Below are positions 1 through 26,275 of a stretch of 64,000 nucleotides of DNA, in pieces (the stretch's first letter is position 1; every line of letters begins with the position of its first letter). The notes under the pieces were generated by a model, which searched no databases, was not told the origin of the DNA, and saw only the letters and a list, made by a program, of their open reading frames with translations. Source of the DNA: an uncultured Candidatus Rokubacteria bacterium (GTDB lineage: Bacteria > Methylomirabilota > Methylomirabilia > Rokubacteriales > CSP1-6); the NCBI GenBank assembly GCA_963789955.1, contig CAWBMV010000012.1:288001-352000 (forward strand), read 5' to 3'. The position numbers and the translations under genes are program-made.

Positions 1-1583
1 GGCAACGTGACACTGCTGCACATCACCGACGCCCACGCGACGCTCCGGCCGGTGTTCTATCGCGAGCCCGACTCGGTCATCGGCGTCGGCGCCGAACGCG
101 GCCATCCGCCGTTTCTGACCGGCGCCGAGCTGCTTCGCGCGTATCACCTCTCGCCGGGGACCGTCGAGGCGTATGCCTACACGTATCTCGATTTCCCGGC
201 GCTGGCCGCGCGATACGGGCGGATGGGGGGCTACGCGCATCTCGCCACCCTGGTCAAGCGGATCCGCGAGCAGCGCGAGGGGCGCACGCTCTTGCTCGAC
301 GGTGGCGACACGATCCAGGGCTCGGCGACCGCACTCTGGACCCGCGGCGAGGACATGGTGCGGGTCTCGAACCAGCTCGGGGTCGACGTCTTCACGCCCC
401 ACTGGGAGTTCGTGTACGGCATCGATCGCGTGAAGGAGCTCTTCGGCGATCGCGAGAACAAAGGGCTCTTCGCCGGCGACTTCGTCGCCCACAACGTCAC
501 CGAGCTCAACTGGGCCGAGCGCCCGTTTCGGCCGTACACGATCCGGGAAGTGGGCGGTGCCCGCGTGGGCGTCATCGGCCAGGCGTTTCCGTACACGCCG
601 GTCTCCCATCCCCGGCGCTTCGTGCCCGATCTCACGTTCGGTATCAGGGAAGACGGCATCCAGGCGCTGGTGACACGAGCTGCGGGACGGCAAGAAGGTC
701 GACCTGGTCGTCCTGCTCTCGCACAACGGTGTCGCCGTCGACTTGAAGCTCGCCGGGCGCGTGCACGGGCTCGACGTCGTGCTCGGCGGTCACACCCACG
801 ATGCGCTGCCGCAGCCGATCCGTGTGGGCCGCACGCTCGTCGTGAACTCCGGCTCGCACGGCAAGTTCCTGAGCCGCCTGGACATGGACGTCCAGCGCGG
901 ACGCGTCGGCTCCTACCGGTATCGCCTGATCCCGGTCCTGGCCCAGGACGTCCCGGCGGATCCCGAGATGGCGCAGCTGATCGAGGAGATTCGCCGGCCG
1001 TACGAGGACAAGTTGAGCGAGCGGCTGGCGGTGTCCGACACCTTGCTCTACCGGCGCGGCAACTTCAACGGCACGTTCGACGAGCTGATCCTCGACGCGC
1101 TCTTGCGCGGCGCCGACGCGCAGATCGGCTTTTCACCGGGCTTCCGGTGGGGGATCACGATCGTCCCGGGCCAGGAGATCACGCTCGAAGACGTCTACGC
1201 GCACACCGCCGTGACCTACCCGAACACCTGGGTGCGCGAGATGACGGGGAGCGAGATCCACCAGGTGATGGAGGACGTCGCCGACAATCTGTTCCATCCC
1301 GATCCGTACTATCGGCAGGGCGGCGATATGGTCCGGCTGGGCGGGCTGACCTATACGATCGACCCGGCGAAGGGGATGGGCCGGCGCATACGAGACCTCC
1401 GCGTGGCAGGCCGGGCCCTGGAGCCGACGCGCCGCTACAAGTCGACGGGGTGGGCGAGCCTCACCGAGGCCGACGGCCCCCCGGCGTGGGACGTCGTGGC
1501 CGCGCACCTGCGAAGCCTCGGACGAGTCAAGATCGCGCCACGGGCGCGCGTCAAGGTCGTGGGACGCAAAGGAGAATGGATGA
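1..1583 (+). CDS. soxB: Thiosulfohydrolase SoxB (5'-nucleotidase family), 5'-truncated by the window; frameshift near 675; 3' end uncertain
   Basis: GNVTLLHITDAHA, GRMGGYAHLATLVK, LLLDGGDTIQGS, VIGQAFPYTP, then after the shift VVLLSHNG, GGHTHD, LYRRGNFNGTFD, FSPGFRWG, DVADNLFHPDPYYRQGGDMVR are SoxB motifs. Confidence 0.9.
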
Positions 1584-2125
1584 GCCGTAGCCTCGCGCTC
1601 GCGGTGGCCCTGGTCGGGCTCGCGCTGCTGCCGGCCGACGCGGCCGACGATCCGCTCGACGAGCGGCTCTCGGCGTTCCAGGTCACACCGCTCGGCGACC
1701 AGGGCCCGCTGCCGTTCAAGCTCGAGTCGCTCGACGGCAAGCTCGTCTCGCTCGCCGACGTGCGCGGCCGGGTCGCCATGCTCTATTTCTGGGAAAGCAC
1801 CTGACCATACTGCGCGAGGGAGTTGCCCTCGACGATCGAGCGAATCCATCGGGAGCTCAAGGACGAGGGGTTGGTCGTGCTGGCGATCAACCTCGCCGAG
1901 AAGCGCGAGCTCGTCGCGACGTGGGTGAAGAGTCGCAACGTGACGTCGACGGTGCTGCTCGACGCGAGCAAAGAGGTCGAGAAGAGCTACCAGATCGCCT
2001 ACACGCCGACGGTGTTCCTGGTCGATCGCCGCGGCAAGCTGGTCGGCAAGGCGATCGGCGAGCGCGCATGGGCCGGCGAGCAGGGACGGGCGCTGCTGCG
2101 CCTGCTGCTCGCGCGCAAGGGCTAG
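1580..2125 (+). CDS. Exported TlpA/redoxin-family thiol-disulfide oxidoreductase with in-frame UGA at 1802-1804 (probable selenocysteine, UxxC)
   Basis: SD AAGGAG then ATG 1580; signal peptide; FKLESLDGKLVSLADVRGRVAMLYFWEST-TGA-PYC continues in frame into ...LVVLAIN...YTPTVFLVDRRGK (thioredoxin fold cis-Pro loop). Confidence 0.85.
1815..1831 (+). promoter_or_regulatory. Putative bacterial SECIS hairpin
   Basis: CGAGGG-AGTTG-CCCTCG stem-loop starting at the 11th nt after the UGA, G in the loop. Confidence 0.65.
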
Positions 2126-2174
2126 CAGGCTGGCGTCCGCCTCGCATCTGAACTTTTTTCAGCAGCCTGCTAGC
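2121..2174. terminator. Inverted repeat between convergent genes, likely bidirectional terminator
   Basis: GCTAGCAGGCTG (2121-2132) / CAGCCTGCTAGC (2163-2174); each arm contains one gene's TAG stop. Confidence 0.5.
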
Positions 2175-3091
2175 GCCGGCGGCGCGGCGGCCCGTCGGCT
2201 TCGCTGAGCGCCGAACGCAGCGCCTGGAGCAGGGCGCGCGCGGCCGGCGAGAGCGGACGGGGACGCGGGTGGATCACGTCGAGGCTTCGGGCGATCGGCT
2301 CGGCGTCGACGATCTCGAACGCGACCAGGCTGCGCCGGCGTAGCTCGCGTCCGACCGCCAGGTGCGGCAGGAAGGCGAGCCCCATGCCGCGCTCGACCAT
2401 GCGTTTCGCCGTCTCGATCGTCTCGACCTCGAGCGCCACGTTCGGCACGAGCCCCGCCCGCCGGAACAATCCCTGGGTCAAGGTCCAGTCGCTCGAGCCG
2501 CGGTCGAAGAAGATCAGCGGCCGATCGGCGATCTCTTCGAGCCGCGCCCGGCGCTCGCGCTTCGGCCAGGACGCCGCCCGCCCGACCAGCACGAGCGGAT
2601 CGTCGCGCAGGCTCACGGTCTCGACTTCGGGGTGGTGGAGCGACCGCGCGAGGCCGATCTCGGCGTCGCCGCGCAGCACCATCTCGAGCACCTCCTTGGA
2701 GTGGCCGGAGCGGACGGTGATCATCACGTTGGGATGCGCGCTCTGGAATCGCTTGAGGACGTCGGGCAGGAGATAGGTGCAGATCGACAGCACCGCGGCG
2801 ATCTGGATCGCGCCGCCGCTCGCCGGACGGATGTCGTGCACCGCCTGACGCGCGAGCGCCACCGCCTGCAGCAGCTGTTCGGCGTGCGGGCGTAGCGCGC
2901 GGCCCGCCGCCGAGAGCGCGAGCCCGTGACCCTGTCCGGCCACGCTCGAAGAGCCGCACCTTGAGCGAATCCTCCAGGGTGCGGATGCGCGCGCTCACCG
3001 CCGGCTGCGTCAGACGGAGCGCCGCCGCGGCGCGACGAAAGCCGCCGAACGTCCCGACCGCGAGAAACGCTTCGACCTGAGGGATATCCAC
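2170..3091 (-). CDS. LysR-family transcriptional regulator (frameshift near 2940)
   Basis: N-terminal HTH FRRAAAALRLTQPAVSARIRTLEDSLKVRLFER; substrate-binding domain in the next frame. Confidence 0.9.
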
Positions 3092-3236: not shown

Positions 3237-3401
3237 ATGTCGACGACGTGCGAGTGCGGAGCGACGCTCGAGCAGCCGGGCCGGACGGCGCGCTGCCAGG
3301 AATGTGACGTGGCGGCCTGCCCCGGCTGCGTCATCCATGTGGAGACCATGACCTATTGCCGGTGGTGCGCGACCGTGCTCGCGCGCCATCGTGTCGCCTG
3401 A
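3237..3401 (+). CDS. 54-aa eight-cysteine small protein (putative double zinc finger), not in the ORF track
   Basis: SD GGAGGAG; MSTTCECGATLEQPGRTARCQECDVAACPGCVIHVETMTYCRWCATVLARHRVA; its stop overlaps the SD of the next gene. Confidence 0.75.
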   Translation: MSTTCECGATLEQPGRTARCQECDVAACPGCVIHVETMTYCRWCATVLARHRVA

Positions 3402-3411
3402 GGAGGGATCG

Positions 3412-4386
3412 ATGCCGGAGAGCAAAGGACGACAGTTCCGACGCCTGCTGAAGGAAGAGCCGTATCTGTTCACGGGCGGCATCTACGAGCCGCTCGGCGC
3501 GCAGATGGCCGAGAAGGTCGGCATGAAGTCGATCTACCTGAGCGGCTACTCGATGGCCCTGCACAACGCATGGCCGGACATGGGCTTTCTCACGCAGACG
3601 GAGGTCGCCCGGATCGCGTCGATGGTGGCCTCGGCCACGAGCCTGCCGGTCATCGCCGACGCCGACGACGGCTACGGCAACGCGCTCTCGACGATCCGAA
3701 CGGTGCAGGAGTTCATGAAGACGGGCGTCGCCGGCATCCATCTGGAGGACCAGCGGTTCCCGAAGCGCTGCGGCCACATCGCCGGGAAGACCATCGTGAG
3801 CCTCGAGGAGGCCCTGGGCAAGTACCGGGCCGCGCTCGACACGCGCGACCGCCTCGATCCGGACTTCGTGATCATCGCCCGGACGGATGCCTACGGGGCG
3901 GTGGGCGGCAGCCTCGAGGAAGCGATCCGCCGCGGCCGCGCCTATGCCGACGCCGGCGTCGATTCCGTGTGGTGCGAGCTCTCGAACGCCTCGCGTGAGC
4001 CCGCGGTGGCCTTCGCCAAGGCGATGCGCGAGACCCATCCGGATCTGCCGCTGTCGTTCAACTACTCGTCGTCGTTCCGCTGGCACCAGGACCCGAACCC
4101 GTTCACGTTCAAGGAGCTGGGCGAGCTCGGCTACAAGTTCATCTTCATCACGCTCTTCGCCTCCCACGCGGCGACGTACGCCACCTGGAACGCGATGGAG
4201 GAGCTGGTGCGTGACGAGGAGCAGGCCCAGTGGATGCTCGAGAAGGCGAAGGTCGGCCATCCGACGGAGAGCCACCACGTGATGGCGCGGGTCTCCTATT
4301 TCCAGGAGCTCGAGAAGAAGTACATCCCGGGCACCGAGGACCGGATCAAGTCCTCAGCGGGCTTCGACGACCACCGGATGCATTGA
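3412..4386 (+). CDS. aceA: Isocitrate lyase, short haloarchaeal-like type (ICL/PEP mutase family)
   Basis: DADDGYG, HLEDQRFPKRCGHIAGK, IIARTDA, FNYSSSFRW, ELGELGYKFIFITLF, GHPTESHH. Confidence 0.75.
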   Translation: MPESKGRQFRRLLKEEPYLFTGGIYEPLGAQMAEKVGMKSIYLSGYSMALHNAWPDMGFLTQTEVARIASMVASATSLPVIADADDGYGNALSTIRTVQEFMKTGVAGIHLEDQRFPKRCGHIAGKTIVSLEEALGKYRAALDTRDRLDPDFVIIARTDAYGAVGGSLEEAIRRGRAYADAGVDSVWCELSNASREPAVAFAKAMRETHPDLPLSFNYSSSFRWHQDPNPFTFKELGELGYKFIFITLFASHAATYATWNAMEELVRDEEQAQWMLEKAKVGHPTESHHVMARVSYFQELEKKYIPGTEDRIKSSAGFDDHRMH

Positions 4387-8051: not shown

Positions 8052-9786
8052 ATGATGAGGCCAATCGACGCCGTCGAGACGGACGTGCTCGTCCTCGGCG
8101 CCGGCGGCGCCGGGCTCTGTGCCGCGCTCCACGCCGCCGACCGGTCGCCCAATCTTTCGGTCACCGTCGTCGTCAAGGGGTTGCTCGGCCGCGCGGGCTG
8201 TACGCGCATGGTGCAGGGCGGGTACAACGCGGTGCTGACGGCGCCGGACTCGCTCGAGGCGCATTTTCTCGACACGCTCGCGGGCGGCGGGTGGATCAAC
8301 GACCAGGAGCTCGTGTGGACCCTCGTCGTCGAGGCGCCCGGCCGGGTGCTCGAGCTCGAGTCGCGCTACGGGTGCCTCTTCGACCGCACGACCGAGGGGC
8401 GGATCCATCAGAAGCCCTTTGCCGGCCAGACGCACGATCGGACGATCCACAAGGGCGACCTGACCGGCATCGAGATCATGAACCGCCTGTCGGAGCAGGT
8501 GCTCCGGCGCGAGAACGTCCAGGCGCTCGAAGAGTGTCGCGCGGTCGAGCTTCTGCTCGACGGCACGGGGCGCTGCGCGGGCGCGCTCGTCCTCGACATC
8601 CGCCAGGGGCGATTCGTCGTCGTGACCGCCCGCGCAACCTTGCTGGCCATGGGCGGCGGGCCCACCATGTACAAGGTCGTCGCGTGTTCGGCCGACAAGG
8701 CCGCCGACGGTATCGCGCTCGGGTATCGTGCGGGGTTGCCGCTGCGCGACATGGAGATGATCCAGTTCCATCCGACGGGTCTCGTCATCCCGGACTCGCT
8801 GATGACGGGCGCGCTCCTCGAGGAAGGGCTGCGCGGCGCCGGCGGCCATCTGAAGAACGGGCGCGGCGAGCGGTACATGGAGCGGTACGATCCGGCTCGG
8901 ATGGAGCGCTCGACCGCGCGATCTCGTCGCGCGGGCCTCGTTCCTCGAGGTGACGGAGGGCCGCGGGACGCCGAACGGCGGCGTGTGGATCGACGTCTCG
9001 CATCTCGGCGCCGACGTGGTCGAGCGGAACTTCCGCGGCATGGTCCGGCGCTGTCGTGACTTCGGCCGGGATCTCGCGCGCGGGCCGGTCGAGGTCGGCC
9101 CGACGACACACTTCATGATGGGTGGCGTCGTCGTCGACACCGCGTGCCGCACGGCGATCGACGGGCTCTTCGCGGCCGGTGAGGATACCGGTGGTGTCCA
9201 CGGCGCCAACCGCCTGGGCGGCAACGGTGTCGCGGAGTCGACCGTGTTCGGCGGCATCGCCGGCGACGTGATGGCTGATTTCGTCGCCGGACGCGCGGCG
9301 CCGCGCCACGCCGCCGCCGTCGGCGACGTCGTCGAGCGGCTCACCGCGCCGCTCGAGCGCCGCGGCGGCGATCTCTATGCGCTACAGCGCGAGCTGCGTG
9401 AGGTGATGTGGGAGCGGGCGGGGCTCGTGCGTGACGGCGAAGGCCTGAAGATCGCGGCGGCGACCGCCGATCGGATCGCCGGCGAGCTCGCGCGTGTCGG
9501 TGTTCCCGGGGGAGCGGCGTTCAATCTGGCGTGGCAGGACTGGATCAACCTGACCAACCAGACGGCCGTCGCCCGCCTGATCACGGCCAGCGCCCTGGCA
9601 CGGACCGAAAGCCGCGGCGCGCACTACCGCAACGATTTCCCGGCGCCGTCGGCCGCGCCGCTCTACACCGTGCGCGTCCAGTCGCGCGCCGGCGAGAGCG
9701 CGGTGTGGACGGAGCCGGTGGCGCTGACGCGCGCGACACCCGCCGGAGCGGGGCGTGTGTCGTCGATGGTCGAAGTTGGAGACTGA
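8052..9786 (+). CDS. SdhA/FrdA/TfrA-family flavoprotein, non-canonical (frameshift near 8915)
   Basis: DVLVLGAGGAG, GCTRMVQGGYNA, QFHPTG, EEGLRGAGG, HFMMGG, HGANRLGGNG, RTESRGAHYR. Confidence 0.85.
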
Positions 9787-9812
9787 GCGACCCAAGCGAG
9801 GGAGGGCACGAG

Positions 9813-10184
9813 ATGGCGTTCGACGGTGAAGCGTTCGTGGATCGATTCAACACGGTGTGGAACGGGCACGATATCGAGGGAATTCTCGCCATGATGACCG
9901 ACGACGTCATCTTCGAGGCCTCCTTCGGCAAGGACCCCTGGGGATCGCGAGTCGTCGGCAAGCCGGCGGTGCGCGAGTTCCTCGAAGAGATGTTCGGGCG
10001 CGTCGCTGACATCCGCTGGGACGAGATCCGGCACTTCGCCGGCCCCGAGCTGGCGGTGGTCGAGTGGCTGACGACCGGGACGCCGCGCGGCTCCACGCGC
10101 TTCGAGGTGCAGGGGTGCGATCTGCTGACCCTGCGCAACGGCAAGATCGCCGCCAAGCGCTCCTACCGCAAGGGGCAGCTGTAG
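9813..10184 (+). CDS. SnoaL/NTF2-like protein (TauX-like)
   Basis: SD GGAGGG; FNTVWNGHDIEGILAMMTDDVIFE...GCDLLTLRNGKIAAKRSYRK. Confidence 0.8.
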   Translation: MAFDGEAFVDRFNTVWNGHDIEGILAMMTDDVIFEASFGKDPWGSRVVGKPAVREFLEEMFGRVADIRWDEIRHFAGPELAVVEWLTTGTPRGSTRFEVQGCDLLTLRNGKIAAKRSYRKGQL

Positions 10185-10188
10185 CCGA

Positions 10189-10216
10189 CGCCGCGCCGGC
10201 CCGCGCCGGCGCGGCG
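10189..10216. terminator. GC hairpin between convergent genes
   Basis: CGCCGCGCCGGC-CCGC-GCCGGCGCGGCG, 12-bp stem. Confidence 0.55.
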
Positions 10217-10218
10217 CT

Positions 10219-11798
10219 TCAGTGCGAGGAGACGCGCGTCTTGAACGTCGGCGCGGGCACGCCGTCGATCGCCACGTTGACGCACGCGGGACGGCCCGAG
10301 GCGATCGCGCGCGCGACCGCCGGCGCGAGCTCCTCGGGCCGCTCCACGCATTCACCGTGGCCGCCCAGCGCCTCCACGATCCGCTCGTAGCGCGACGGCA
10401 GCAGCTCGCAGCCCACGGTCCGGTCGGCTCCGTAGTGCTGGATCTGCAGCTGGTACTCCGCATTCCAGCGTGCGTCGTTGCCGACGATCGCCACGATCGG
10501 CAGACCGTAGCGCAGCGCCGTGTCGAATTCGAGCGCGTGATAGCCGAATGTCCCGTCGCCGAGCGTCGTGATGATCGTGCGGTCGGGGTGGGCGACCTTG
10601 GCGGCCACGGCCATCGGCAGGGCGCTGCCGATCGAGCCGGACGGGCCGTTGATCAACCGAGTCTGGGCGACCAGAGCGGCCTGGGCCCACTGGCCGAACT
10701 CTCCGCCATCGCTGACGAGCACGGCTCCGCGGTCGAGGTGCGGCTGGATTGCGGCGCAGAGGCGGACCGGATGCATCGGCGCGCGCGGAGAGCGCTGCAG
10801 ATCGTCCCAGCCCGACGGACGCGCCGTGCGCGCCGTCTCGATCTCGTCCGTCCATTCGGTGCGCCGCCAGTGTCGCTCGCGGGCGACGCGCAGCATCGCG
10901 TCGACTCTGGTGGCCGGATCGCCCGCGCCGTCGAAGTCCAGATGCAGGAAGCGCACATCTGCGGCGAACGCGGGCGGGCGGCCGAAGCGCAAGGTGTAGT
11001 CGAGCTTCTTGCCGAGCAGCAACACCAGATCCGCGTCGGACAGACACGCCGCCGCCGCCCGCAACGATGGGTCGTTGACACCGCGCGGGCTCTCCATGAC
11101 GAGCGCCGGAACCTGGGTGAGCTCCGCGAGCGCGGTGACCGCGCGCCAGCGCGCTCCGCGCCCCATCGCCGGCCCGGCGATGATCAGCGGGCGCTTGGCC
11201 TCGGCGAGTAGCCCGAGCGTCTCGCGAACCGCGGCCACGGACGGATCGGCCACGGGCGGCGGCGCTCTGCACCGCCATGCGCGGTCTCTTCGTCGACGAT
11301 CGTCTCGAGCAGGTCTCCCGGGAGGCTCACGTGCACGGGACCGGGGCGGCCGGTCGTGGCCAGGGTGAGAGCCCGGGCGATGTCGTCCCCGAGCGTGTCG
11401 GCGCTGTCGGCCAGCCACGCCGCCTTCGTGACCGGCCGCGCGGCGCCGACCTGGTCCATCTCCTGGAAGGCGCCGGTTCCGAGCTGGTTTCGCGGCGCGT
11501 GGCCGCTCAGCAGTACCACCGGCGACTCGGACATGAGCGCGCCGTAGAGCGCGGAGACCGCGTTGCAGTGTCCGGGGCCCGCCGTGACCAGCGCGACACC
11601 CGGCTGGTCGGTCAGACGCCCCCACGCGTCGGCCATGTGGACGGCGGCGGCTTCGTGCCGCGTGTGAACGAGGGCGATGTCGCGCCCGACCGTGGCGTCG
11701 TAGATCGACAGGATCTGGTTTCCGGAAAGCGTGAAGAGATATTTGACGCCGTGGGCGGCCAACGCGTCGACGAGGCACTGGGCTCCGGTCCGTGACAT
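10219..11798 (-). CDS. Thiamine pyrophosphate-dependent enzyme (ALS/2-hydroxyacyl-CoA lyase-like; frameshift near 11270)
   Basis: TRHEAAAVHMADAWGRLT, VTAGPG, GDGTFGY...GNDARWN TPP motif. Confidence 0.85.
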
Positions 11799-11828
11799 GC
11801 GGACGATAATACGGTAGCTTGGCGGGCC

Positions 11829-12146
11829 GTGAGCCGCGTTCTCAAGCGCGACTGGAGTACCGCGGAAGGCTGGCGCGACACGAAGGCCGGCATGTGGGCG
11901 TGGCTGATCCAGCGCGCCGCGGCCGTGGCGCTCTTGCTCGTGATCGCGCTGCATCTGGCGAACCCGTTCCGCCGCGGCACTCAGGCCGCGCTGCTGGCCC
12001 TCGTGCTGGTCCACGCTCTGCTCGGCGTTCGAGCGATCCTGCTCGACTTCGGTCTCGCGCACCGCTGGCACCGCGCGCTGTTCGCGCTCGCGATAGTGCT
12101 GGCGGCGATCGTCTTCGTGCTGGTCTGGGCGTGGAGGTGGTACTGA
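11829..12146 (+). CDS. Small SdhC/cytochrome b556-like membrane anchor
   Basis: GMWAWLIQR, LVHALLGVRAILLDFG; 3 TM helices. Confidence 0.65.
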   Translation: MSRVLKRDWSTAEGWRDTKAGMWAWLIQRAAAVALLLVIALHLANPFRRGTQAALLALVLVHALLGVRAILLDFGLAHRWHRALFALAIVLAAIVFVLVWAWRWY

Positions 12147-12157
12147 GCCGCGCCGAG

Positions 12158-13484
12158 CTACATCGGACGTGAGGACACGATCGCGGCGTAGAGCGCGGTC
12201 TGGCGGTAGAAGTGTCGCAGCACGTAGTGCTCGTTGACGTCGTGCTGCTGGTTGTTGCTGTTGGCCGCCGGAATCCAGAGGCACGGAATCCCCAGGACGT
12301 CCGTGAAGACGTGAAGCGGCAGGGTGCCGCCGAGAATCGGCAGCGCGATCGGCTCCTCGCCGCCGTGCTCCTCCAGCAAGCGTAGAAGCCAGCCGAACTC
12401 CGGCCGCGCGGGCGAGGTGTAGCTCGCGGGCTGACCGTCGGTCTCGACCGTGAACGTGATGCCCGGCGTGCGGCTCTGGTGGTCGGCGACCGCGCGCTGG
12501 ACGATGTCGCGCATCGCGGCGACCGGCGTGTCGGGCGTCAGCCTGATGTCCAGACGCGCATGGGCCGTGCGCGGGATGATGGTCCGCCGCAAGCGTCGGC
12601 GAGGCGCCGTCGGAGATGAAGCTGTTGATGTTCACGGTCGGCTTCAAGAACGGCGTCCAGACCGCCTTGTCCTCCCACTTCGCGAACACCTCGCTCGCCT
12701 CACGCCGAAACGCCTCGTGCTCGGCCGACCAGACCCGAACGCGCTCCTCGATGTCGCCGATGAGCCGGGCGAGGGGAAGCACCGGGTTCGGCACGATGTT
12801 GCCGTAGTTGCCCGAGTGGACGGACGCGGTCTGCCCGTTGTCGGCGACGATGTTGACGGTCAAGAGGCCGCGCACGCCCATCACGAGCGTCGGGGCGTTG
12901 TTCTGCTTGGGGCCGTCGGAGCCGATCAGGACGTCCGCGGCGAGCTTGTCTCGATGGGCCTGGGCGATCGCCGCGAGATTCGGGCTCCCATGCTCCTCTT
13001 CGCCGTCGAGGATGATCTTGACCTTCCACTGGGCGGCGCCGGACCGAACGGCGTCCATGGCGCCGAGGATGTTCGAAAGATGCTGGCCCTTGTTGTCGGC
13101 TCCTCCGCGTCCCACCATTATCAAGTCGTCGAGCGCCTGGTCGCCGATCAGGCGCGGCTCGACCGCGCGCCCGTCGAGGAAGTAGGCCGGCACGAACGGC
13201 TCGCACGGGACGCCCTGCCACGTCCAGCGCGTCACGTCACCCGTGGGCTGGACGTCGTAGTGACCGTAGAGGAGGAGCGTCGGAGCGCCCTTCGGTCCGG
13301 GCAGCTCGCCGTAGAGGGCGGGGGTGCCGCGGCCGTCGTCGGGCGCCAGGGGCGTCAGCTCGAGACCGAGCCCACGCCAGAGGCCGCGGACGGCTTCGAC
13401 CATGTCCGGAGTGACCTGACGACTGATCGTCGGGATCCGGAGATAGCGATCGAGGAGCTCGAGCCGGTCGTGACGCGAGGACAT
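12158..13484 (-). CDS. M20/M25/M40 metallo-hydrolase (frameshift near 12590)
   Basis: LLYGHYDVQP, GRGGADNKGQ, DGEEEHGSP, HSGNYG, QHDVNE. Confidence 0.85.
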
Positions 13485-13511
13485 TGAAGTGGCGGTAGTA
13501 TAACGCCGACG

Positions 13512-14229
13512 ATGACGTCGCCCGCCGCGCTCCGCGTCTTTCGCTGGACGGCCGACCAGGCCGAGCGTGTCGACGAATATCGGGTCACCGCCGCGGCCGA
13601 CACGACGGTGCTCGACGCGCTCGTGGAGATCCAGCGCACGCAGGATCCGACGCTCGCCTTCCGCTACGCCTGTCGCGTCGGGATGTGCGGCTCGTGCGCG
13701 ATGGTGGTGAACGGCCGGGAGCGGTGGGCCTGCCGCACGCGGCTCGAGTCGCTCGGCCCGGGACCGATCAGCGTCCGTCCGCTCTATCACTTCCCGCTGC
13801 TGCGCGATCTGGTCGTCGACATGACGCCGTTCGCGGCCAAGCTCCGGGACGTGAGCGCGGCCCTCACGCCGCGCGAGGGGGCTCGAGCCCTATGCCCTGG
13901 TGTCGAGCGGCTCGGCCGAGCGCCACGAGATCGACCTGGCGATCGAGTGCATCGGCTGCGGGATGTGCGTCTCCGCCTGCACGATGGTCGGTCACAACGA
14001 CCGATTTCCCGGGCCGGCCGCGCTCAACCGGGCGCTGACGCTCGAGCTCGACCATCGCGACGGTGGTCGCGAGGGGCGCTGGCGCGTTCTCCTGGGCGAC
14101 GACGCGCTCGCGCGCTGTCACGGCCAGGGCAACTGCACCGAGGTCTGTCCGATGAGCCTCTCGCCGGCCGATTCGATTCGCCGGCTTCGTCGGCTCGCCG
14201 TGCCACGGTTGTTCGGTCTGTCGGGTTGA
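13512..14229 (+). CDS. SdhB/FrdB-like iron-sulfur subunit (frameshift near 13885)
   Basis: YACRVGMCGSCAMVVNG..WAC; CIGCGMCVSAC; CHGQGNCTEVCP. Confidence 0.85.
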
Positions 14230-15023
14230 TTCGCCTGGGCGATCTGACCTCACCCGGCGCCGCAAGGCTTGCCCGTGATCCCCGCGCCGTTGTGTTCCTT
14301 CCGCTCGGTGCGATCGAGCAGCACGGCCCGCATCTTCCGCTCCTGGTCGACTGGCGGGGCGCCGAGGAGCTGGCGCGCCGGGTCGCGCCCCATCTGCGTC
14401 GCGCCGGGTGGCGTCCGATTCTCGCGCCGTCGATCCCGTACGGCGTCAGCACCCTGGCCGTCGGCTGGCCGGGCACGGTCTCGCTCTCGATCTCGACCTT
14501 GCGTCGGCTGATCGTCGAGCTCGTCAACGGGCTCGCGAGCCACGGCTTTCGTCGATTCGTCCTGACGAACTATCAGGCGGATCCGGATCACTTGAGAGCG
14601 ATCGCCGCCGCGCGGCGAGCGCTCGCCCGGCGCCGGCAATTGCGCGTGCTCGTGGCGGGCTTCGAGCCCGCAACTCGACCGCCGACGCCGATGGTGAACC
14701 GCCGGGTGCAGGCGCTCATGCGCAGCCCGAATCCCGACGCGGAGTGGCACTCCGGCGAGCTGGAGACCGCTCTCATGCTGTCGGTCGACAGAAAGCTCGT
14801 CCGAGAGCGAATCGCGCGACGGCTGCCGCCGGCGTGGTTCGACTTCCGCCGCGAGCTGGCGCGCGGCGCGCGCAATTTTCGGCAGCTCGGTCCGGGCGGG
14901 GCCGGTTACTTCGGCTGGCCGGCGGCCGCGCGAGCGCGGACGGGCCGCGCCGTGATGGCGCTGCGCGGCCGGCTGATCGCGCGACGGCTGCTCGAAACGC
15001 TCGGGAAGCCGTCGCGTTCTTGA
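14226..15023 (+). CDS. Creatininase-family amidohydrolase
   Basis: TTG overlapping the upstream TGA; LPLGAIEQHGPHLPLLVD, HSGELETA. Confidence 0.8.
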   Translation: MIRLGDLTSPGAARLARDPRAVVFLPLGAIEQHGPHLPLLVDWRGAEELARRVAPHLRRAGWRPILAPSIPYGVSTLAVGWPGTVSLSISTLRRLIVELVNGLASHGFRRFVLTNYQADPDHLRAIAAARRALARRRQLRVLVAGFEPATRPPTPMVNRRVQALMRSPNPDAEWHSGELETALMLSVDRKLVRERIARRLPPAWFDFRRELARGARNFRQLGPGGAGYFGWPAAARARTGRAVMALRGRLIARRLLETLGKPSRS

Positions 15024-15048
15024 CCCTGTCTGCGCGGCGCGTTAGAGT
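15020..15048 (+). promoter_or_regulatory. Putative sigma70 promoter of the TCA operon
   Basis: TTGACC-N17-TAGAGT. Confidence 0.5.
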
Positions 15049-15226
15049 AATGCGTCATTGAAATCGACGAGATCGGCGGCAAATTGCTCGCAACGAGCCT
15101 CACAATCGAGCACATCGAGTTCTTCCAGGGCGCAGAGCCCGCTCGGCGACGACCGCGCGGGATGTGCGCGCTGCAGGGCGTCGCGGGGCTGGGGCCACGC
15201 CGGCCGAGGCGCGCCTCTAGATTTAG

Positions 15227-16228
<1,002 letters not shown>

Positions 16229-16348
16229 TCCAGGGAGTGTCACGCGGATGGCGAAGCGAGCGAAGGCGAGGCAGAAGAAGAAGTCCGCCGCCCGGAGGCC
16301 ACCCGCGAGGGTCAAGCCGATTGGCGAACATGCCGGCAGGGCCGCGTC

Positions 16349-17172
16349 GTGAGAGACGTTCACGTCAGCGCCATCGTCGACGCGGTCAAGAAGCTCTGCA
16401 TCGGCGCCAACCTGGAGCTCGAGCCCGACATGCTGCGCGCCTTCGACCGCGCGCTGACCACCGAGCGCTCGCCGGCCGGCAAGCAGGTGCTGCAGATCCT
16501 GAAGGACAACGCCGAGATGGCCCGGACCCGGCGCATTCCGTACTGCCAGGACACCGGCTTCGTCGTGTGCTTCGTCGAGCTCGGCCAGGACGTGCACGTC
16601 ACGGGGGGCGGGCTCTACGACGCGATCAACGAGGGCGTGCGCCAGGGCTACAAAGAGGGCTATCTGCGCGCCTCGATCGTGCGGTCGCCGCTCGACCGCG
16701 TGAACACCGGCGACAACACGCCGGCGGTGATCCACGTCGACGTCGCGCCGGGCGCCGAGCTCAAGCTCGCGATCATGGCCAAGGGCGGCGGCTGCGAGAA
16801 CCGCTCGAAGTACACGATGCTGACGCCGGCCGCGGGTGTCGACGGCGTGAAGGACTTCATCATCGACTGCGTGAAGATGGCGGGCCCGGACGCGTGCCCG
16901 CCGCTCATCCTGGGCGTCGGCGTCGGCGGCACGTTCGAGAAGGCCGCGATCTTGTCGAAGAAGGCGCTGTTCCGCGAGGTCGGCTCCGCCAACTCGGACC
17001 CCACGCTCGACGCGCTGGAGAAGGAGCTGCTCGCGCGCGCCAACCGGCTCGGGATCGGCCCGCAGGGTTATGGCGGCGACACGACGTCCCTCGGCATCCA
17101 CGTGCTCACGTACCCCTGCCACATCACGTCGCTGCCCGTCGCCGTCACGATCGAATGCCACGCGCATCGCCA

Positions 17173-17191
<19 letters not shown>
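16349..17191 (+). CDS. Class I Fe-S fumarate hydratase, alpha subunit
   Basis: PYCQDTG, NTGDNTPAVIH, KGGGCEN, ACPP, CHAHRH. Confidence 0.9.
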
Positions 17192-19558
<2,367 letters not shown>

Positions 19559-19560
19559 CG

Positions 19561-20142
19561 ATGAGCGTCACGACCGCGGCCGACGGCCTCAAGGACGTCA
19601 CGACGCCGCTCAGCGACGCCGACGTCGAGTCATTGAGGACCGGTGACCGAGTGCGGATCACCGGTGTCGTCTACACGGCGCGCGACGCGGCGCACGGACG
19701 ACTGTGGCCGCTGATCCAGGAAGGCAAGCAGCTCCCGATCGACGTGCGCGGCCAGATCATCTACTACACCGGCCCGTCGCCGGCGAAGCCCGGCGATGTC
19801 GTCGGCTCGATCGGTCCCACCACCGGCAGTCGCATGGACAAGTTCACACCGGCGCTGATCAAGCTGGGGCTCAAGGCCACCATGGGCAAGGGCGCCCGCT
19901 CGCAGCCGGTCAAGGATGCGTTCAAGCAGTACAAGGGCGTGTACTTCGGCGCCATCGGGGGCGCCGGCGCCGTGCTCTCGCGGTTCGTGAAGCGCGTCGA
20001 GATCGTCGCGTACGAGGATCTCGGCACGGAGGCGATCCGGCGCCTGGAGGTCGAGGCGTTTCCGGCCATCGTGGTCAACGACTGCCACGGCGGCGATCTC
20101 TATCAGGACGGCATGAAGGCCTATGCGCGGGAGGAGACATGA
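19561..20142 (+). CDS. Class I Fe-S fumarate hydratase, beta subunit
   Basis: [33 protein letters not shown]. Confidence 0.9.
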
Positions 20143-20935
20143 GCAGCCGGGTGATCGGGCAATCGCGGCCCTCCATCACGGCATCGCACCTGAGGACGGA
20201 TCCGTGGTGGGCGCTGCCGATCACGGTGGTGATCGTGCTCGGCTCGTTCATCGTCTACTCGACGTGGGCGGCCTTCCAGAACGCCCACTATTTCGTCGAT
20301 CCGTATCTGTCGCCGTTCTATTCGCCCTGTCTCTCGCAGACGTGCCTGCACAAGAGCTTCGGGTTCGCGCTGCCGGACATCCACTTGCCGATCATCGGGC
20401 TGCTCTCGCCCGCGTTCCTCATCCTCGGCGGGCCGGGCTTGTTCCGGCTGACCTGCTACTACTACCGCAAGGCGTACTACCGCTCGTTCTGGCTCACGCC
20501 GCCGGCGTGCGCGGTGCCCGACTTGAAGCGGGGCTACAGCGGTGAGACGAGGTTCCCGCTGCTCTTCCAAGCGTTTCCATCGCTACACCTGGTATGTGGC
20601 GGTGCTCTTCATCCTGATGCTGACCTGGGATGCCATCCTCGCGTTCCGGTTCCCGAACGGTTTCGGGATCGGCGTGGGCACGCTCGTCATGTGGGTCAAC
20701 GTGATCTTCCTGGCCGGCTACACGTTCTCGTGCCACTCCTGCCGCCACGTCTGCGGCGGCCACGTCAACGTGTTCTCGAAGGCGCCGGGCCGCTATCGCA
20801 TCTGGCATTTCGTGACGCGCCTGAACGAGCGCCATCCCGACATTTGCCTGGCTCTCGCTCTTCAGCGTCGGATTGACCGACCTCTACATCCGACTGGTCT
20901 CGATGGGCGTGATTCGAGACTGGAGGATCATCTGA
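20139..20935 (+). CDS. sdhC: Succinate dehydrogenase membrane anchor, actinobacterial Sdh1 (Rv0249c-like) type (frameshifts near 20570 and 20845)
   Basis: [49 protein letters not shown]. Confidence 0.8.
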
Positions 20936-22737
20936 TGGCGAATCCGGACTACGAGACACACGAGCACGACGTCCTGGTCATCGGCGCCGGCGGCGCCGGC
21001 CTGCGGGCGGCGATCGAGGCCGCGGCGCAGGGCGTGTCGGTCGGCCTGGTCTGCAAGTCGCTTCTCGGCAAGGCGCACACCGTGATGGCCGAGGGCGGGA
21101 TCGCCGCGTCGCTCGGCAACGTGTGGCCCGAGGACAACTGGCAGGTGCACTTCCGCGACACGATGCGCGGCGGCAAGATGCTCAACAACTGGCGGATGGC
21201 GCAGCTGCACGCCCAGGAAGCACCCGACCGGGTGCTCGAGCTGGAGCGCTGGGGCGCCCTGTTCGATCGCACCAAGGACGGGCGGATCCTCCAGCGCGAC
21301 TTCGGCGGACACCGCTACGCGCGCCTGGCCCACGTCGGCGACCGCACCGGTCTGGAGATGATCCGCACGCTCCAGTATCACGGCATCCACCAGGGCATCG
21401 ACGTGTACATGGAGTGCAAGGTCGAGCGCCTCCTGAAGGACGGCGATCGCGTCAACGGCGCCTTCGGCTACTGGCGCAACACCGGCAAGTTCGTGCTCTT
21501 CAAGGCCAAGGCCGTCGTGCTCGCCACCGGCGGCGTCGGCAAGGCGTGGAAGGTCACGTCGAACTCGTGGGAGTACACGGGCGACGGCCAGTCGCTCGCG
21601 CTGTGGGCGGGCGCGGATCTGCTCGACATGGAGTTCGTCCAGTTCCATCCGACCGGCATGGTCTGGCCGCCGTCGGTGCGCGGCATCCTCGTCACGGAGG
21701 GCGTGCGCGGCGACGGCGGGACGTTGAAGAACACCAAGGGCGAGCGGTTCATGTTCAATTACATCCCGGAGTTCTTCAAGGGCGAGACCGCCGACAACGA
21801 GGCCGAAGCCGACCGCTGGTACGCGGACAAGAAGAACAACCGGCGCACGCCCGATCTCTTGCCGCGCGACGAGGTCGCGCGCGCGATCAATGCCGAGATC
21901 AAGGGCGGGCGCGGGACCCCGCACGGGGGCGTCTTCCTCGACATCTGCACGCGCCGTCCGGCCGACTACATCAGGAAGCGCCTGCCGTCGATGTACCACC
22001 AGTTCAAGGAGCTCGCGGGTGTCGACATCACCAAGGAGCCGATGGAGGTCGGACCGACCTGCCACTACATCATGGGCGGCGTCCGTGTCGACGCGGACAC
22101 CACCGCGGCGACCGTGAAGGGGCTGTTCGCGGCCGGCGAGGTCGCCGGTGGCATGCACGGCTCGAACCGCCTCGGCGGGAACTCGCTCTCGGATCTCCTG
22201 GTGTTCGGCCGGCGCGCCGGATTGTACGCCGCGCTCTACGCCAAGGATTTCGGCGGCGCGCTGACGGTCGAGTCGAGCCAGGTCGACTCGCTCGCCCGCG
22301 AGATGCTCGAGCCGTTCACGCGGAGCGGCGGTGAGAACCCGTACGCGATCCAGGCCGACCTTCAAGAGACGATGCAAAGCCTGGTCGGGCTGATCCGGAC
22401 CGAGCAGGAGCTGCGCGAGGCCTTGAAGCGGATCGAGTCGTTCAAGCACCGCGCGGCGCGCACGCACGTCGACGGCGGCCGCACCTACAACCCCGGCTGG
22501 CACACGGCGCTCGATCTCGGCTCACTGCTCACCGTGGCCGAGTGCTGCACGCTGGCCGCGCTCGAGCGGCGGGAGAGCCGCGGCGGTCACACGCGCGACG
22601 ATCACCCGTACACCGACGACTCGTGGGGCAAGATCAACGTGGTCATCCGCCAGAGGCAGGGGGCGCTCGCCCTCAGCCGTGAGCCGCTGCCGGAGATGCC
22701 GGCCGAGCTCAAGGCGCTCTTCCAGGAGAGGAAGTAG
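20935..22737 (+). CDS. sdhA: Succinate dehydrogenase flavoprotein
   Basis: GKAHTVMAEGG (FAD-His), QFHPTG, VTEGVRGDGG, PRDEVAR, HGSNRLGGNS. Confidence 0.93.
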   Translation: MANPDYETHEHDVLVIGAGGAGLRAAIEAAAQGVSVGLVCKSLLGKAHTVMAEGGIAASLGNVWPEDNWQVHFRDTMRGGKMLNNWRMAQLHAQEAPDRVLELERWGALFDRTKDGRILQRDFGGHRYARLAHVGDRTGLEMIRTLQYHGIHQGIDVYMECKVERLLKDGDRVNGAFGYWRNTGKFVLFKAKAVVLATGGVGKAWKVTSNSWEYTGDGQSLALWAGADLLDMEFVQFHPTGMVWPPSVRGILVTEGVRGDGGTLKNTKGERFMFNYIPEFFKGETADNEAEADRWYADKKNNRRTPDLLPRDEVARAINAEIKGGRGTPHGGVFLDICTRRPADYIRKRLPSMYHQFKELAGVDITKEPMEVGPTCHYIMGGVRVDADTTAATVKGLFAAGEVAGGMHGSNRLGGNSLSDLLVFGRRAGLYAALYAKDFGGALTVESSQVDSLAREMLEPFTRSGGENPYAIQADLQETMQSLVGLIRTEQELREALKRIESFKHRAARTHVDGGRTYNPGWHTALDLGSLLTVAECCTLAALERRESRGGHTRDDHPYTDDSWGKINVVIRQRQGALALSREPLPEMPAELKALFQERK

Positions 22738-22739
22738 CG

Positions 22740-23496
22740 ATGGCGCAATTCACGATGCGGGTGTTCCGCGGTGATGCCTCGGGCGGGGGCTTCAAGGACT
22801 ACAACGGTCGAGCCCGAGGAAGGCATGGTCGTGCTGGACGTGATCCACAAGATCCAGGCGACTCAGGCCAACGATCTCGCGTGCCGGTGGAACTGCAAGG
22901 CCGGCAAGTGCGGATCGTGCAGCGCCGAGGTGAACGGCAAGCCCCGTCTGATGTGCATGACCCGGATGGACTTGTTCCAGCCCGGCGACACGATCACGGT
23001 GGCGCCGATCCGGACCTTCCCGCTCATTCGCGACCTCGTCACCGACGTGTCCTACAACTACGAGAAGGCCAGGCAGGTGCCGCCGCTGCGCCTGAAGCCG
23101 CCCGAGCCCGACGGCACCTACCGGATGATGCAGGAAGACATCGATCGCATCCAGGAGTTCCACAAGTGCATCGAGTGCTTCCTGTGCCAGGACGTGTGTC
23201 ACGTGATCCGCGACCACGAGGACAAGAAGCGCGCCTTCGCCGGGCCGCGCTTCTTCATCAAGCTGGCGGGGCTCGACATGCATCCGCTGGACACCCGCGA
23301 CCGCGCGCGCTTCATCACGGATGAGGCGGGAGTGGGGCTCTGCAACATCACCAAGTGCTGCACCGAGGTGTGCCCCGAGCACATCCACATCACCGACAAC
23401 GGGATCATCCCGCTCAAGGAACGGGCGGCCGATGCGGTCGACCCGGTCGTCTGGCTGCTGCGGAAGTTCCGCGGCCAGAAGAGCCAACAGGCCTGA
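22740..23496 (+). CDS. sdhB: Succinate dehydrogenase Fe-S subunit (frameshift near 22805)
   Basis: WNCKAGKCGSC, CIECFLCQDVC, CNITKCCTEVCP. Confidence 0.9.
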
Positions 23497-23506
23497 TCTC
23501 GCGTCC

Positions 23507-24667
23507 GTGAAAATCCACGAGTACCAGGCCAAGGCCCTGCTGCGCGAGTTCGGCGTGCCGGTCCCGGCCGGCGACGTCGCCACCACGCCCGCGGAGGCTC
23601 GAGCGGTTGCCGCGCGCCTGGGCGGCAAGGTGGTCGTGAAGGCGCAGGTGCACGCGGGTGGCCGCGGCAAGGCCGGCGGGATCAAGCTCGCCGACGACCC
23701 GGAGGGCGCCCAGCGCGCCGCGCAGCAGATCCTCGGCATGAAGCTCAAGACGCCCCAGACGCCGCCCGACGGCATCCTCGTGCGCTCGGTGCTCATCGAA
23801 GAAGCCTCGGCCGTCGACCGTGAGCTCTACCTCTCGATGACGCTCGATCGCGCCCGCGCGACCCACGTCGTGATGGCCTCGCAGGCGGGCGGGATGGACA
23901 TCGAGGAGGTCGCCGCACGTACACCCGAGCGGATCTTCCGGGAGTGGGCGCATCCGGCGCTCGGGATCCAGGACTACCAGGCGCGCCGTCTCGCGTACGG
24001 GCTCGGGCTGACGGGCGAGCCGTTCAAGCAGGCGGTCGGCCTGATCCGAAGCCTCTTCGCACTCTACCTCGCGCGCGACTGCTCGCTGGCCGAGATCAAC
24101 CCGCTGGTGGTCACCAAGGACGGGCGCGTGCTGGCCCTCGACGCCAAGCTCAACTTCGACGACAACGCGCTCACTCGGCACAAGGAGATCGCGGCCCTCC
24201 GCGACGTCAACGAGGAAGATCCGCTCGACGTCGAAGCCTCGAAGTACGGCCTGAACTACATCAAGCTCGACGGGAACGTCGGCTGCATGGTGAACGGCGC
24301 AGGGCTCGCGATGGCGACGATGGACATCGTGAAGCTCGCCGGCGGCGAGCCCGCCAACTTCCTCGACGTCGGCGGCGGCGCCTCACCCGAGCAGATCGAG
24401 AACGCGTTCCGCATCCTCTCGTCCGATCCGAGCGTGAAGGCGGTGTTCATCAACGTGTTCGGCGGCATCCTACGCTGCGACCGTCTGGCCGCGGGCGTGA
24501 TCGCCGCCGTCCAGAAGCTCGGGCTGCGGCTGCCGGTCGTGGTGCGCATGGAAGGCACCAACGTGGAGCAAGGCAGGCAGATGCTCGCCGAGTCGGGCCT
24601 GCATCTGACCAACGCCGACGACATGGGGGATGGCGCGAAGAAGGCGGTGGCCCTCGCGCGGGGCTAG
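23507..24667 (+). CDS. sucC: Succinyl-CoA synthetase beta
   Basis: [47 protein letters not shown]. Confidence 0.95.
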
Positions 24668-24980
24668 CCGGTGGCTACCCCTCTTGCTCCTCACGGCCCT
24701 GGTCGTCGCGAGCGCCGGGTGTCGGCGCGGCGACGAGCGAGCCTACGAGGACGCCGTCGCGACGATGTCGATGGTGAAGGCCAAGGCGTTCTTCGAGAAG
24801 TACCCGCAGAGCCCGTACCGGGATCGGCTCGTCGAGGACATGATCCGGTGGTGCCGGCGTGAGGACACCGACGCGTGCTATGAGATCATCGTCAAGACGA
24901 TGCCGACCGATCATCCCCGCTACCAGGAAGTCGCCGACCTCGTCGAGCGTCGGCGCGCCGACAAGCGGCGGAAGCACTGA
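24630..24980 (+). CDS. Hypothetical lipoprotein between sucC and sucD (start uncertain)
   Basis: Hydrophobic segment plus lipobox SAGC; stop abuts the sucD ATG. Confidence 0.6.
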
Positions 24981-25853: not shown

Positions 25854-26275
25854 GCGCGCAGCGCACCCTCGCCATCGTCAAGCCCGACGCGGTGGCCAAG
25901 CGCGTGGCGGGCAAGATCATCACGCGCATCGAGGAGGCCGGCTTCACGATTCTCGCGGCCAGGCTCGTGCACATGTCGCTCACCGAGGCGCGCGGCTTCT
26001 ACTATGTTCATCGCGCGCGGCCCTTCTACGAGAGCCTCTGCTCCTTCATGGCGCAGGGGCCGTGCCTCTTAATGGTGCTCGAGGGCGAGAACGCGATCCA
26101 GCGCTGGCGCGACCTCATGGGCGCCACCGATCCGGCCAAGGCGGCGTCCGGGACGATCCGAAAGGATTTCGCCTCGTCCATCGAGGCCAACGCCGTGCAC
26201 GGCTCCGACTCGCCCGAGACGGCGGCGGTCGAGATCCCCTACTTCTTCTCCAGCCTCGAGCTCTGCCCGCGGTAA
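25850..26275 (+). CDS. ndk: Nucleoside-diphosphate kinase
   Basis: [27 protein letters not shown]. Confidence 0.95.

What the first reader, a model, noticed from the sequence alone, without database searches (positions are those of the whole stretch)
1580..2125. Hidden selenoprotein: exported UxxC redoxin directly behind soxB
Seen: the ORF track splits this gene (ends 1804, restarts 1823), but both halves are in one frame separated by a single TGA: FWEST-TGA-PYC. A 6-bp hairpin CGAGGG/CCCTCG starts at the 11th nt after the UGA. Established: TlpA/ResA redoxins have FWAxW-CxxC, so the UGA sits exactly at the nucleophilic Cys, and bacterial SECIS hairpins lie just 3' of the UGA. Sox clusters use periplasmic Cys thioredoxins (SoxS/SoxW) to maintain SoxYZ. 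Inference: this is a selenocysteine version of a Sox accessory reductase, linking Se to thiosulfate oxidation; I know of no description of that pairing. The other defects in this window are indels, not substitutions to stops, which argues against an error.
Basis: partly seen in the sequence, partly recalled or inferred. Interest (0 to 1): 0.85.

Follow-up and report, generated by a model that had tools for sequence, protein, structure and literature searches.

The report
Selenocysteine redoxin closing sulfur-oxidation operon
An apparent stop codon inside this soil-bacterium gene is almost certainly read as selenocysteine, giving a known kind of selenium-containing disulfide reductase, predicted to be exported, that stays at the end of a sulfur-oxidation gene cluster even in relatives that lack the sox genes, so it is likely not a dedicated Sox partner.

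Summary
Observation confirmed. Window 1580-2125 is one 181-codon frame with a single TGA (1802-1804) at the first Cys of a ResA/TlpA-type CxxC. The genome (Ca. Rokuibacteriota by its homologues' names) has selA, selB, selC and selD. Of 136 subfamily sites, 112 have TGA and 24 Cys. The hairpin's five inner pairs hold in 112 of 112 TGA sites and 1 of 24 Cys sites. So this is a real UxxC selenoprotein (about 0.97), of a catalogued kind (Prx-like/Redoxin/TlpA UxxC).

The Sox link is only partly supported. The gene lies within 3 kb behind soxB in 48 of 80 soxB genomes. It also keeps its place behind an NrfCD-molybdoenzyme pair in 18 genomes without an orthologous soxY. Standalone paralogues carry the same Sec and hairpin, so Sec predates the cluster. 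The fold is ResA/TlpA, and no SoxV/CcdA gene was seen in the cluster.

Best reading: an exported Sec thiol-disulfide reductase serving the whole sulfur-oxidation operon, with SoxY as one likely client. Nine literature searches found no such pairing. This scan noted the same gene before in another genome (e1-4980515).

The parts
1..1579 (+). 3' part of soxB (thiosulfohydrolase). One extra base at 674 splits its frame. It has no stop codon before the redoxin in this assembly.
   Evidence: TIGR04486 hits on both halves, E 1e-88 and 1e-124; base 674 left out in 4 of 4 DNA runs; frame run-on at 1 of 270 sites
1568..1574 (+). Shine-Dalgarno-like AAAGGAG, 5 nt before the ATG at 1580
   Evidence: sequence; function inferred
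1580..2125 (+). Gene for a 181-aa ResA/TlpA-type redoxin with a UxxC site (U75-P-Y-C78)
   Evidence: (PF00578 E 5e-22, PF08534 E 3e-20)
1580..1642 (+). Predicted cleavable signal peptide (basic n-region, hydrophobic core, A-D-A); read by eye, no predictor run
   Evidence: sequence; similar hydrophobic N-termini in the soxB-linked orthologues printed; low pLDDT in residues 1-20
1802..1804 (+). In-frame TGA = predicted Sec75 at the nucleophilic position
   Evidence: TGA in 112 and Cys in 24 of 136 subfamily sites; identical in independent contigs
1811..1813 (+). Resolving Cys78 (TGC)
   Evidence: TGC in 136 of 136 subfamily sites (Cys at this place was part of my subfamily definition)
1815..1831 (+). 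Bacterial SECIS: 6-bp stem, AGUUG loop 16 nt after the UGA, -10.4 kcal/mol; written with rare codons AGG and TTG. The annotated 'restart' TTG (1823) lies in the loop.
   Evidence: codon use; consensus criteria from PMC13188914
2006..2008 (+). Pro143, the thioredoxin-fold cis-Pro position (role recalled)
   Evidence: invariant in alignment A1, 16 sequences
2170..3091 (-). Convergent LysR regulator (frameshifted); neighbour mostly in the window's own genus, not part of the conserved cluster
8052..9786 (+). SdhA/TfrA-like flavoprotein gene (split in two ORFs) whose orthologue follows the redoxin directly in many relatives

Best explanation
This gene likely encodes an exported ResA/TlpA-type thiol-disulfide reductase with selenocysteine as its attacking residue, and it likely services the periplasmic proteins of a Rokubacteria sulfur-oxidation operon as a whole rather than SoxYZ alone. 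Shown here: one frame with a TGA at the first CxxC position; selA, selB, selC, selD in the genome; a hairpin kept with TGA and lost with Cys; ResA/TlpA fold; a fixed place at the end of the cluster MBL-rhodanese, YeeE, FCSD, TauE, NrfC-NrfD, molybdoenzyme, [soxY, soxZ, soxXA, soxB, dsrE-like], redoxin, SdhA-like gene. Inferred: SelB binds the AGUUG hairpin and inserts Sec75 (about 0.97); the signal peptide exports the protein (about 0.9); the selenolate attacks disulfides, persulfides or polysulfide adducts on periplasmic sulfur carriers (SoxY where present, the exported DsrE-like protein, flavocytochrome c sulfide dehydrogenase, or sulfur bound for YeeE import), Cys78 resolves the mixed bond, and the genome's one detected CcdA/DsbD-type protein re-reduces it (about 0.5). 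Sec is inherited from a Sec-rich redoxin lineage and is replaceable by Cys, so it would tune the rate rather than be required.
For: Machinery over family cut-offs: selA, selB, selD, tRNA-Sec, anticodon TCA; selA in 125 of 151 family genomes. TGA 112 / Cys 24 of 136 sites; inner five pairs 112 of 112 vs 1 of 24; AGG in 111 of 112 TGA sites vs 0 of 12 Cys sites with Arg there; TTG/TTA in 111 of 112 vs 0 of 22 Cys sites with Leu, against genome use of 3.7% for AGG and 5.4% for TTG+TTA. Six paralogue sites show compensatory changes at three stem positions around the same loop. Fold: pLDDT 89.5, best match ResA, rmsd 1.3 A. Context: 103 of 111 rows of tree clade II lie within 3.5 kb of a cluster gene; 48 of 80 soxB genomes have it within 3 kb downstream on the same strand; 12 of 12 long sox-less loci read NrfCD-molybdoenzyme-redoxin. 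Periplasmic thioredoxins in sox clusters are established: SoxS reduces false mixed disulfides of SoxYZ and may pass sulfane sulfur to a YeeE-like transporter (PMC10451225; PMC11582611); Thermus has a thioredoxin heading its sox operon (PMC10318464).
Against: No client is shown; the function rests on gene order. The most constant neighbours, the molybdoenzyme and NrfC-NrfD, start without a visible export signal, so an exported protein would not reach them, and retention could be positional inertia. FCSD lies upstream in only 6 of the 12 long sox-less loci. The only DsbD/CcdA hit lies on another contig next to a Cys TlpA, so the electron donor is unclear. Clade II has only SH-aLRT 86 in a quick tree. 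Among 39 metagenome loci with the same SECIS and 1200 nt or more upstream, 23 show no cluster gene. No data on protein or Se incorporation.
Confidence: 0.5

Rival explanations
1. It is a dedicated SoxS/SoxW equivalent: its main job is to reactivate SoxYZ, and selenium supply therefore gates thiosulfate oxidation.
For: Within 3 kb behind soxB in 48 of 80 soxB genomes. TGA at 51 of 53 soxB-neighbouring sites but at 20 of 40 sites beside other sox genes or the molybdoenzyme only. SoxS targets SoxYZ. SoxY here is a true GGCGG SoxY.
Against: Kept in place in 18 genomes with no orthologous soxY (8 with no hit, 10 with hits of 38% identity or less); 17 of these have no soxB hit; 9 of the 18 still use TGA. 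The Sec/Cys contrast reflects about six switches only, two beside soxB and one more in a soxB genome. ResA/TlpA fold; SoxS not among rows shown. No SoxV/CcdA among the cluster proteins scanned.
Confidence: 0.22
2. It is a ResA/CcmG-like reductant that keeps the CxxCH motifs of the operon's c-type cytochromes (SoxXA, FCSD cytochrome) reduced for heme attachment.
For: Closest structures are ResA; Glu81 is invariant in A1 and matches ResA Glu80 (role recalled). The cluster encodes SoxXA and a second cytochrome c.
Against: A Cys TlpA sits directly before the genome's ccdA-like gene, the usual maturation pair. Six of 12 sox-less loci show neither soxXA nor FCSD nearby. The fold is shared by many redoxins with other clients.
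Confidence: 0.13
3. It is a general envelope redox or antioxidant protein of a Sec-rich lineage that merely travels with the cluster.
For: Four of ten TlpA-like genes in this genome carry TGA. Thirty of 31 clade I paralogue rows lie beside none of the cluster genes. 23 of 39 long metagenome loci show no cluster gene.
Against: 103 of 111 clade II rows stay in the cluster across many genera despite gain and loss of the genes on both sides; the start overlaps the upstream dsrE-like gene in many loci.
Confidence: 0.13
4. The TGA is a true stop (pseudogene) or a sequencing error.
For: The assembly has errors nearby (soxB 674). The hairpin is not stronger than shuffles.
Against: TGA at the same column in 112 of 136 sites with intact downstream frames and a conserved hairpin; same TGA in independent contigs.
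Confidence: 0.01

Closest known systems
[quoted passage not shown]
   Same: Same Pfam domains, same UxxC motif, SECIS meeting all four consensus criteria.
   Different: A Rokubacteriales subfamily (U-P-x-C-x-R-E-L-P); below the cut-off of every NCBIfam model hit, including WAxxUGC_long and redoxin_TUGYCR. The review has no occurrence of 'Sox' or 'sulfur oxidation'.
ResA (Bacillus subtilis) and TlpA (Bradyrhizobium)
   Same: Fold (rmsd 1.3 A, TM 0.92 on ResA), Glu three residues after the second Cys, Pro at the cis-Pro place, exported.
   Different: Sec for the first Cys; 28% identity; PRK03147 score 80.5 against cut-off 170; no ccdA/resBC seen beside it.
SoxS (Paracoccus pantotrophus) and SoxW (Rhodovulum; Thermus TTHA1422)
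   Same: Exported thioredoxin-fold protein encoded in a sox cluster.
   Different: Different thioredoxin subfamily by best matches; no SoxV/CcdA partner in the cluster; kept without soxYZ; no SoxC over cut-off in this genome.

Membership tests
Bacterial selenoprotein | In-frame UGA aligned to Cys in homologues | tested here: met
   112 TGA and 24 Cys of 136 subfamily sites
Bacterial selenoprotein | bSECIS: 3-9 nt loop, 4-16 bp stem, G in first two loop positions, 16-37 nt from UGA, MFE <= -7.5 (PMC13188914) | tested here: met
   5-nt loop AGUUG, 6 bp, 16 nt, -10.4 kcal/mol; kept in 112 of 112 TGA sites, 1 of 24 Cys sites
Bacterial selenoprotein | selA, selB, selC, selD in the genome | tested here: met
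   all over cut-off; anticodon TCA
Bacterial selenoprotein | Selenium found in the protein | not testable with these tools
   needs mass spectrometry or 75Se
Prx-like / Redoxin / TlpA-like UxxC selenoproteins | PF00578 and PF08534 domains over gathering score with UxxC | tested here: met
   78.5 bits (cut-off 26) and 72.9 bits (cut-off 26.6)
ResA/TlpA (named equivalogs) | Score over the curated NCBIfam cut-off | tested here: not met
   ResA 80.5 of 170; TlpA 43.8 of 230; StoA 60 of 210
ResA/TlpA (fold class) | TlpA-type thioredoxin fold | tested here: met
   model pLDDT 89.5; top Foldseek and HMM hits are ResA, TlpA, StoA, CcmG
ResA-type cytochrome c maturation reductant | Encoded with ccdA or heme-attachment genes | tested here: not met
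   the one PF02683 hit is at C6:158896, beside a different, Cys-type TlpA
SoxS / SoxW | Encoded in a sox cluster | tested here: met
   48 of 80 soxB genomes; soxY, soxZ, soxXA over cut-off upstream
SoxS / SoxW | Sequence or structure closest to SoxS/SoxW | tested here: inconclusive
   no SoxS entry in the 60 rows or the rows; no direct pairwise comparison was run
SoxS / SoxW | SoxV/CcdA partner in the cluster | tested here: not met
SoxS / SoxW | Occurs only with SoxYZ | tested here: not met
   kept in 18 genomes without orthologous soxY; completeness 75-100%
SoxS / SoxW | Binds and reduces SoxYZ | not testable with these tools
   needs biochemistry

The most novel reading that the evidence does not exclude
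Rokubacteria run their periplasmic sulfur oxidation with a selenocysteine reductase that reactivates SoxY and frees sulfane sulfur for the YeeE/molybdoenzyme branch. It would be the first Sec component of a Sox system, so soil selenium would set the rate of thiosulfate and sulfide oxidation in a widespread uncultured lineage, and Cys versions would mark lineages that lost soxB or face Se shortage.
Probability: 0.25. Interest if true: 0.7.

Novelty: new member of a known kind. Interest (0 to 1): 0.4.

Why it matters
It repairs a systematic annotation miss: most database hits for this subfamily are 100-aa fragments that begin at the TTG inside the SECIS loop and lack the active site. It gives a clean natural Sec/Cys series, with about six independent switches and loss of the hairpin at nearly every Cys site, useful for studying SECIS constraint on coding sequence. 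If the protein services the sulfur-oxidation operon, selenium supply would touch sulfur cycling in soil Rokubacteria. The protein type itself is known, and Sec is not special to the sox copy.

Tried and rejected
Complex prediction of the Cys orthologue P0007 with SoxY and SoxZ of L056: no answer, score 0.12 against a mark of 0.34, neither for nor against. Folding of 69 nt from the UGA: not better than shuffles. Genome scan for TGA plus hairpin: 12 TGA hits against 14 TAG and 1 TAA control hits, so not discriminating alone. The search for related loci in genome contigs gave only 2 loci. The profile search of 1.84 billion representatives returned mostly multi-domain TlpA proteins and was uninformative. 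Promoter and terminator scan of 1400-2400: nothing. RNA-library contigs cover the gene (X15, X16, X17, X19) and one X15 contig runs from soxB into the redoxin, but contigs cannot show transcription or strand, so this was not used as proof of expression. A real SoxB-redoxin fusion was considered and judged unlikely: 1 of 270 sites, none of the listed contigs crosses that junction as in the window, and one base fewer than in G013 removes the soxB stop. A statistical link between Cys reversion and soxB loss was rejected as unproven: about six events only. The 'stops inside' flags used are not codon calls (G139 is TGT), so codon counts come. One search crashed and one search had a faulty pattern; both were rerun. 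The tree is the quick version; the careful one did not finish. Becraft 2017 (PMC5712423) has no occurrence of sox, selen, thiosulfate or thioredoxin.

Full report
OBSERVATION. Window 1580-2125 (+) is one frame of 181 codons with a single internal TGA at 1802-1804, reading FWEST-U-PYC. Contigs of public runs cross the codon with no difference (X4 record 28; X17 record 23; X1 record 5 also, with only 28 flanking letters). The same DNA runs show that the extra base at 674 in soxB is absent in 4 of 4 runs, and that close strains carry 443 nt between soxB and the redoxin. In this assembly soxB has no stop before the redoxin, found at 1 of 270 sites and probably a one-base loss.

ORGANISM AND MACHINERY. 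Named homologues are from Ca. Rokuibacteriota. The genome has selA, selB and tRNA-Sec together on C1 and selD on C6, all over their cut-offs; selD itself has an in-frame TGA near its start. selA was found in 125 of 151 family genomes. Four of ten TlpA-like genes in this genome carry TGA at this site. A review reports a Methylomirabilota MAG with 63 predicted selenoprotein genes (PMC13188914, passage).

IS IT SEC? The 30 best loci from 61 genomes gave 27 TGA and 3 Cys. A wider set of 150 sites gave 118 TGA, 31 Cys and 1 misaligned row. I defined the main subfamily by the residues after the site (136 rows: 112 TGA, 24 Cys); 14 rows fell outside it. The five inner stem pairs hold in 112 of 112 TGA rows and 1 of 24 Cys rows. 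TGA rows use AGG (111 of 112) and TTG or TTA (111 of 112); Cys rows use AGG in 0 of 12 with Arg and TTG/TTA in 0 of 22 with Leu. Genome-wide these codons make up 3.7% of Arg and 5.4% of Leu codons in my ORF sample. Six paralogue rows change three stem positions on both sides around the same loop. Rows are related, so these are not independent trials; the tree shows about six separate Cys groups. Part of the Cys contrast comes from changed residues, but the three Cys rows with the identical R-E-L-P-S peptide also avoid AGG and TTG. The hairpin alone would not convince: z = -0.11, and 413 of 3000 random TGAs have a similar one. All four consensus criteria of PMC13188914 (passage) are met. I put Sec at about 0.97.

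PROTEIN. Pfam AhpC-TSA and Redoxin are over cut-off; no NCBIfam model is. The model (pLDDT 89.5) matches ResA best, rmsd 1.3 A; the profile search agrees. C78, E81 and P143 are invariant in a 16-sequence alignment. The signal peptide is read by eye. Databases hold the family mostly as 100-aa fragments starting at the loop TTG.

CONTEXT. Upstream of the window lie MBL-rhodanese, YeeE, flavocytochrome c sulfide dehydrogenase, a cytochrome c, TauE, an NrfC-NrfD fusion, a PhsA-like molybdoenzyme (below cut-off), soxY, soxZ, fused soxXA and soxB. No SoxC passes its cut-off. In 151 family genomes soxB was found in 80, and 48 have the redoxin on the same strand within 3 kb downstream; G019 is a further, frameshifted case. 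Several misses are at contig ends; in others soxB is on another contig while the redoxin still follows soxYZ-XA. Of the 136 rows, 53 neighbour soxB (51 TGA), 22 other sox genes (11 TGA), 18 only the molybdoenzyme pair (9 TGA), 10 only the SdhA-like gene (10 TGA) and 33 none (31 TGA). The 18 genomes of the third class have no orthologous soxY (8 no hit, 10 hits of 38% identity or less) and 17 have no soxB hit; several are 95-100% complete. For 12 of them I fetched long stretches: all 12 read NrfCD-molybdoenzyme-redoxin, 6 with FCSD upstream. So the sox genes are a cassette that comes and goes in front of a redoxin that stays. The quick tree splits a clade of 31 TGA rows, 30 outside the cluster, from a clade of 111 rows, 103 inside (SH-aLRT 96 and 86). 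Sec is therefore older than the cluster link. Among 120 metagenome loci with this SECIS, the 39 with 1200 nt or more upstream gave 10 soxB, 6 other cluster genes and 23 none. At E <= 1e-36 the subfamily was found in 85 of 142 genomes of families f1, f3 and f4 and in 0 of 58 genomes of the nine other families sampled.

MECHANISM. Most likely SelB reads the hairpin, the exported protein uses Sec75 to attack disulfides or persulfides on periplasmic sulfur proteins of the operon, Cys78 resolves, and a CcdA-type protein recharges it. The only such gene found is on C6 next to a Cys TlpA. SoxY is a likely client where present, by analogy with SoxS (PMC10451225 and PMC11582611, passages), but cannot be the only reason the gene is kept. 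Against my reading: the constant neighbours look cytoplasmic, so position may be inertia. Rivals are a dedicated SoxS role (0.22), cytochrome c maturation (0.13), a passenger (0.13) and a pseudogene (0.01).

NOVELTY. UxxC redoxins of PF00578, PF08534 and cd02966 are catalogued (PMC13188914, section 7 parts 1-2 of 3). Thioredoxins in sox clusters are known (PMC10318464, passages). I found no paper joining the two in nine searches of the open library, of which I saw listings only; subscription papers and the groundwater deep-Sep study with its supplements were not seen. This scan reported the same gene in another genome (e1-4980515); that is not independent support. Recalled, not checked: the role of ResA Glu80 and of the cis-Pro. 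Verdict: real selenoprotein, new member of a known kind, in an apparently undescribed sulfur-oxidation context; interest 0.4.

Noticed in passing
window 1571-1584: soxB lacks a stop and runs in frame into the redoxin; unique among 270 sites; close strains have 443 extra nt here. Probably a dsrE-like deletion plus a one-base loss or error.
   Followed up: partly
L058, L074, L075, L080, L208, L223, L261, L268, L307, L314 (redoxin 5' ends): In 10 of 25 loci with a dsrE-like end just upstream there is no in-frame ATG, GTG or TTG before residue -50, but an in-frame ACG 6 nt after AGGAGG; two loci have ATG at that place. Possible ACG initiation, confounded by the dsrE coding frame.
   Followed up: partly
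G000 C12:275800-289600 (L083), just upstream of the window: Large sulfur cluster without soxCD: MBL-rhodanese, YeeE, FCSD, cytochrome c, TauE, NrfC-NrfD fusion, signal-less PhsA-like molybdoenzyme, soxYZ, fused soxXA, soxB. The molybdoenzyme fits no NCBIfam model over cut-off.
   Followed up: partly
L330, L331, L332, L336, L337 (genus g47): Divergent soxYZ (43-52% identity) kept between the molybdoenzyme and a Cys redoxin, with no soxXA or soxB in the locus.
   Followed up: no
G000 C34:120311, C34:569329, C22:106521, C6:128189, C22:153213, C38:8187: Other in-frame TGA candidates with hairpins: three more TlpA-like genes, a DsbA-like DYQ-U-PYC, and two others.
   Followed up: no
window 2170-3091, 8052-9786: Frameshifts in the lysR gene and in the SdhA/TfrA-like gene, probably long-read indel errors.
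   Followed up: no
window 3391-4386 and 8052-26275: Isocitrate lyase/PEP mutase family gene; SdhA-like, SnoaL-like, TPP-enzyme-like and small membrane-anchor genes, followed by TCA-cycle-like genes read by eye. The SdhA-like gene follows the redoxin in many relatives; its substrate is unknown.
   Followed up: no
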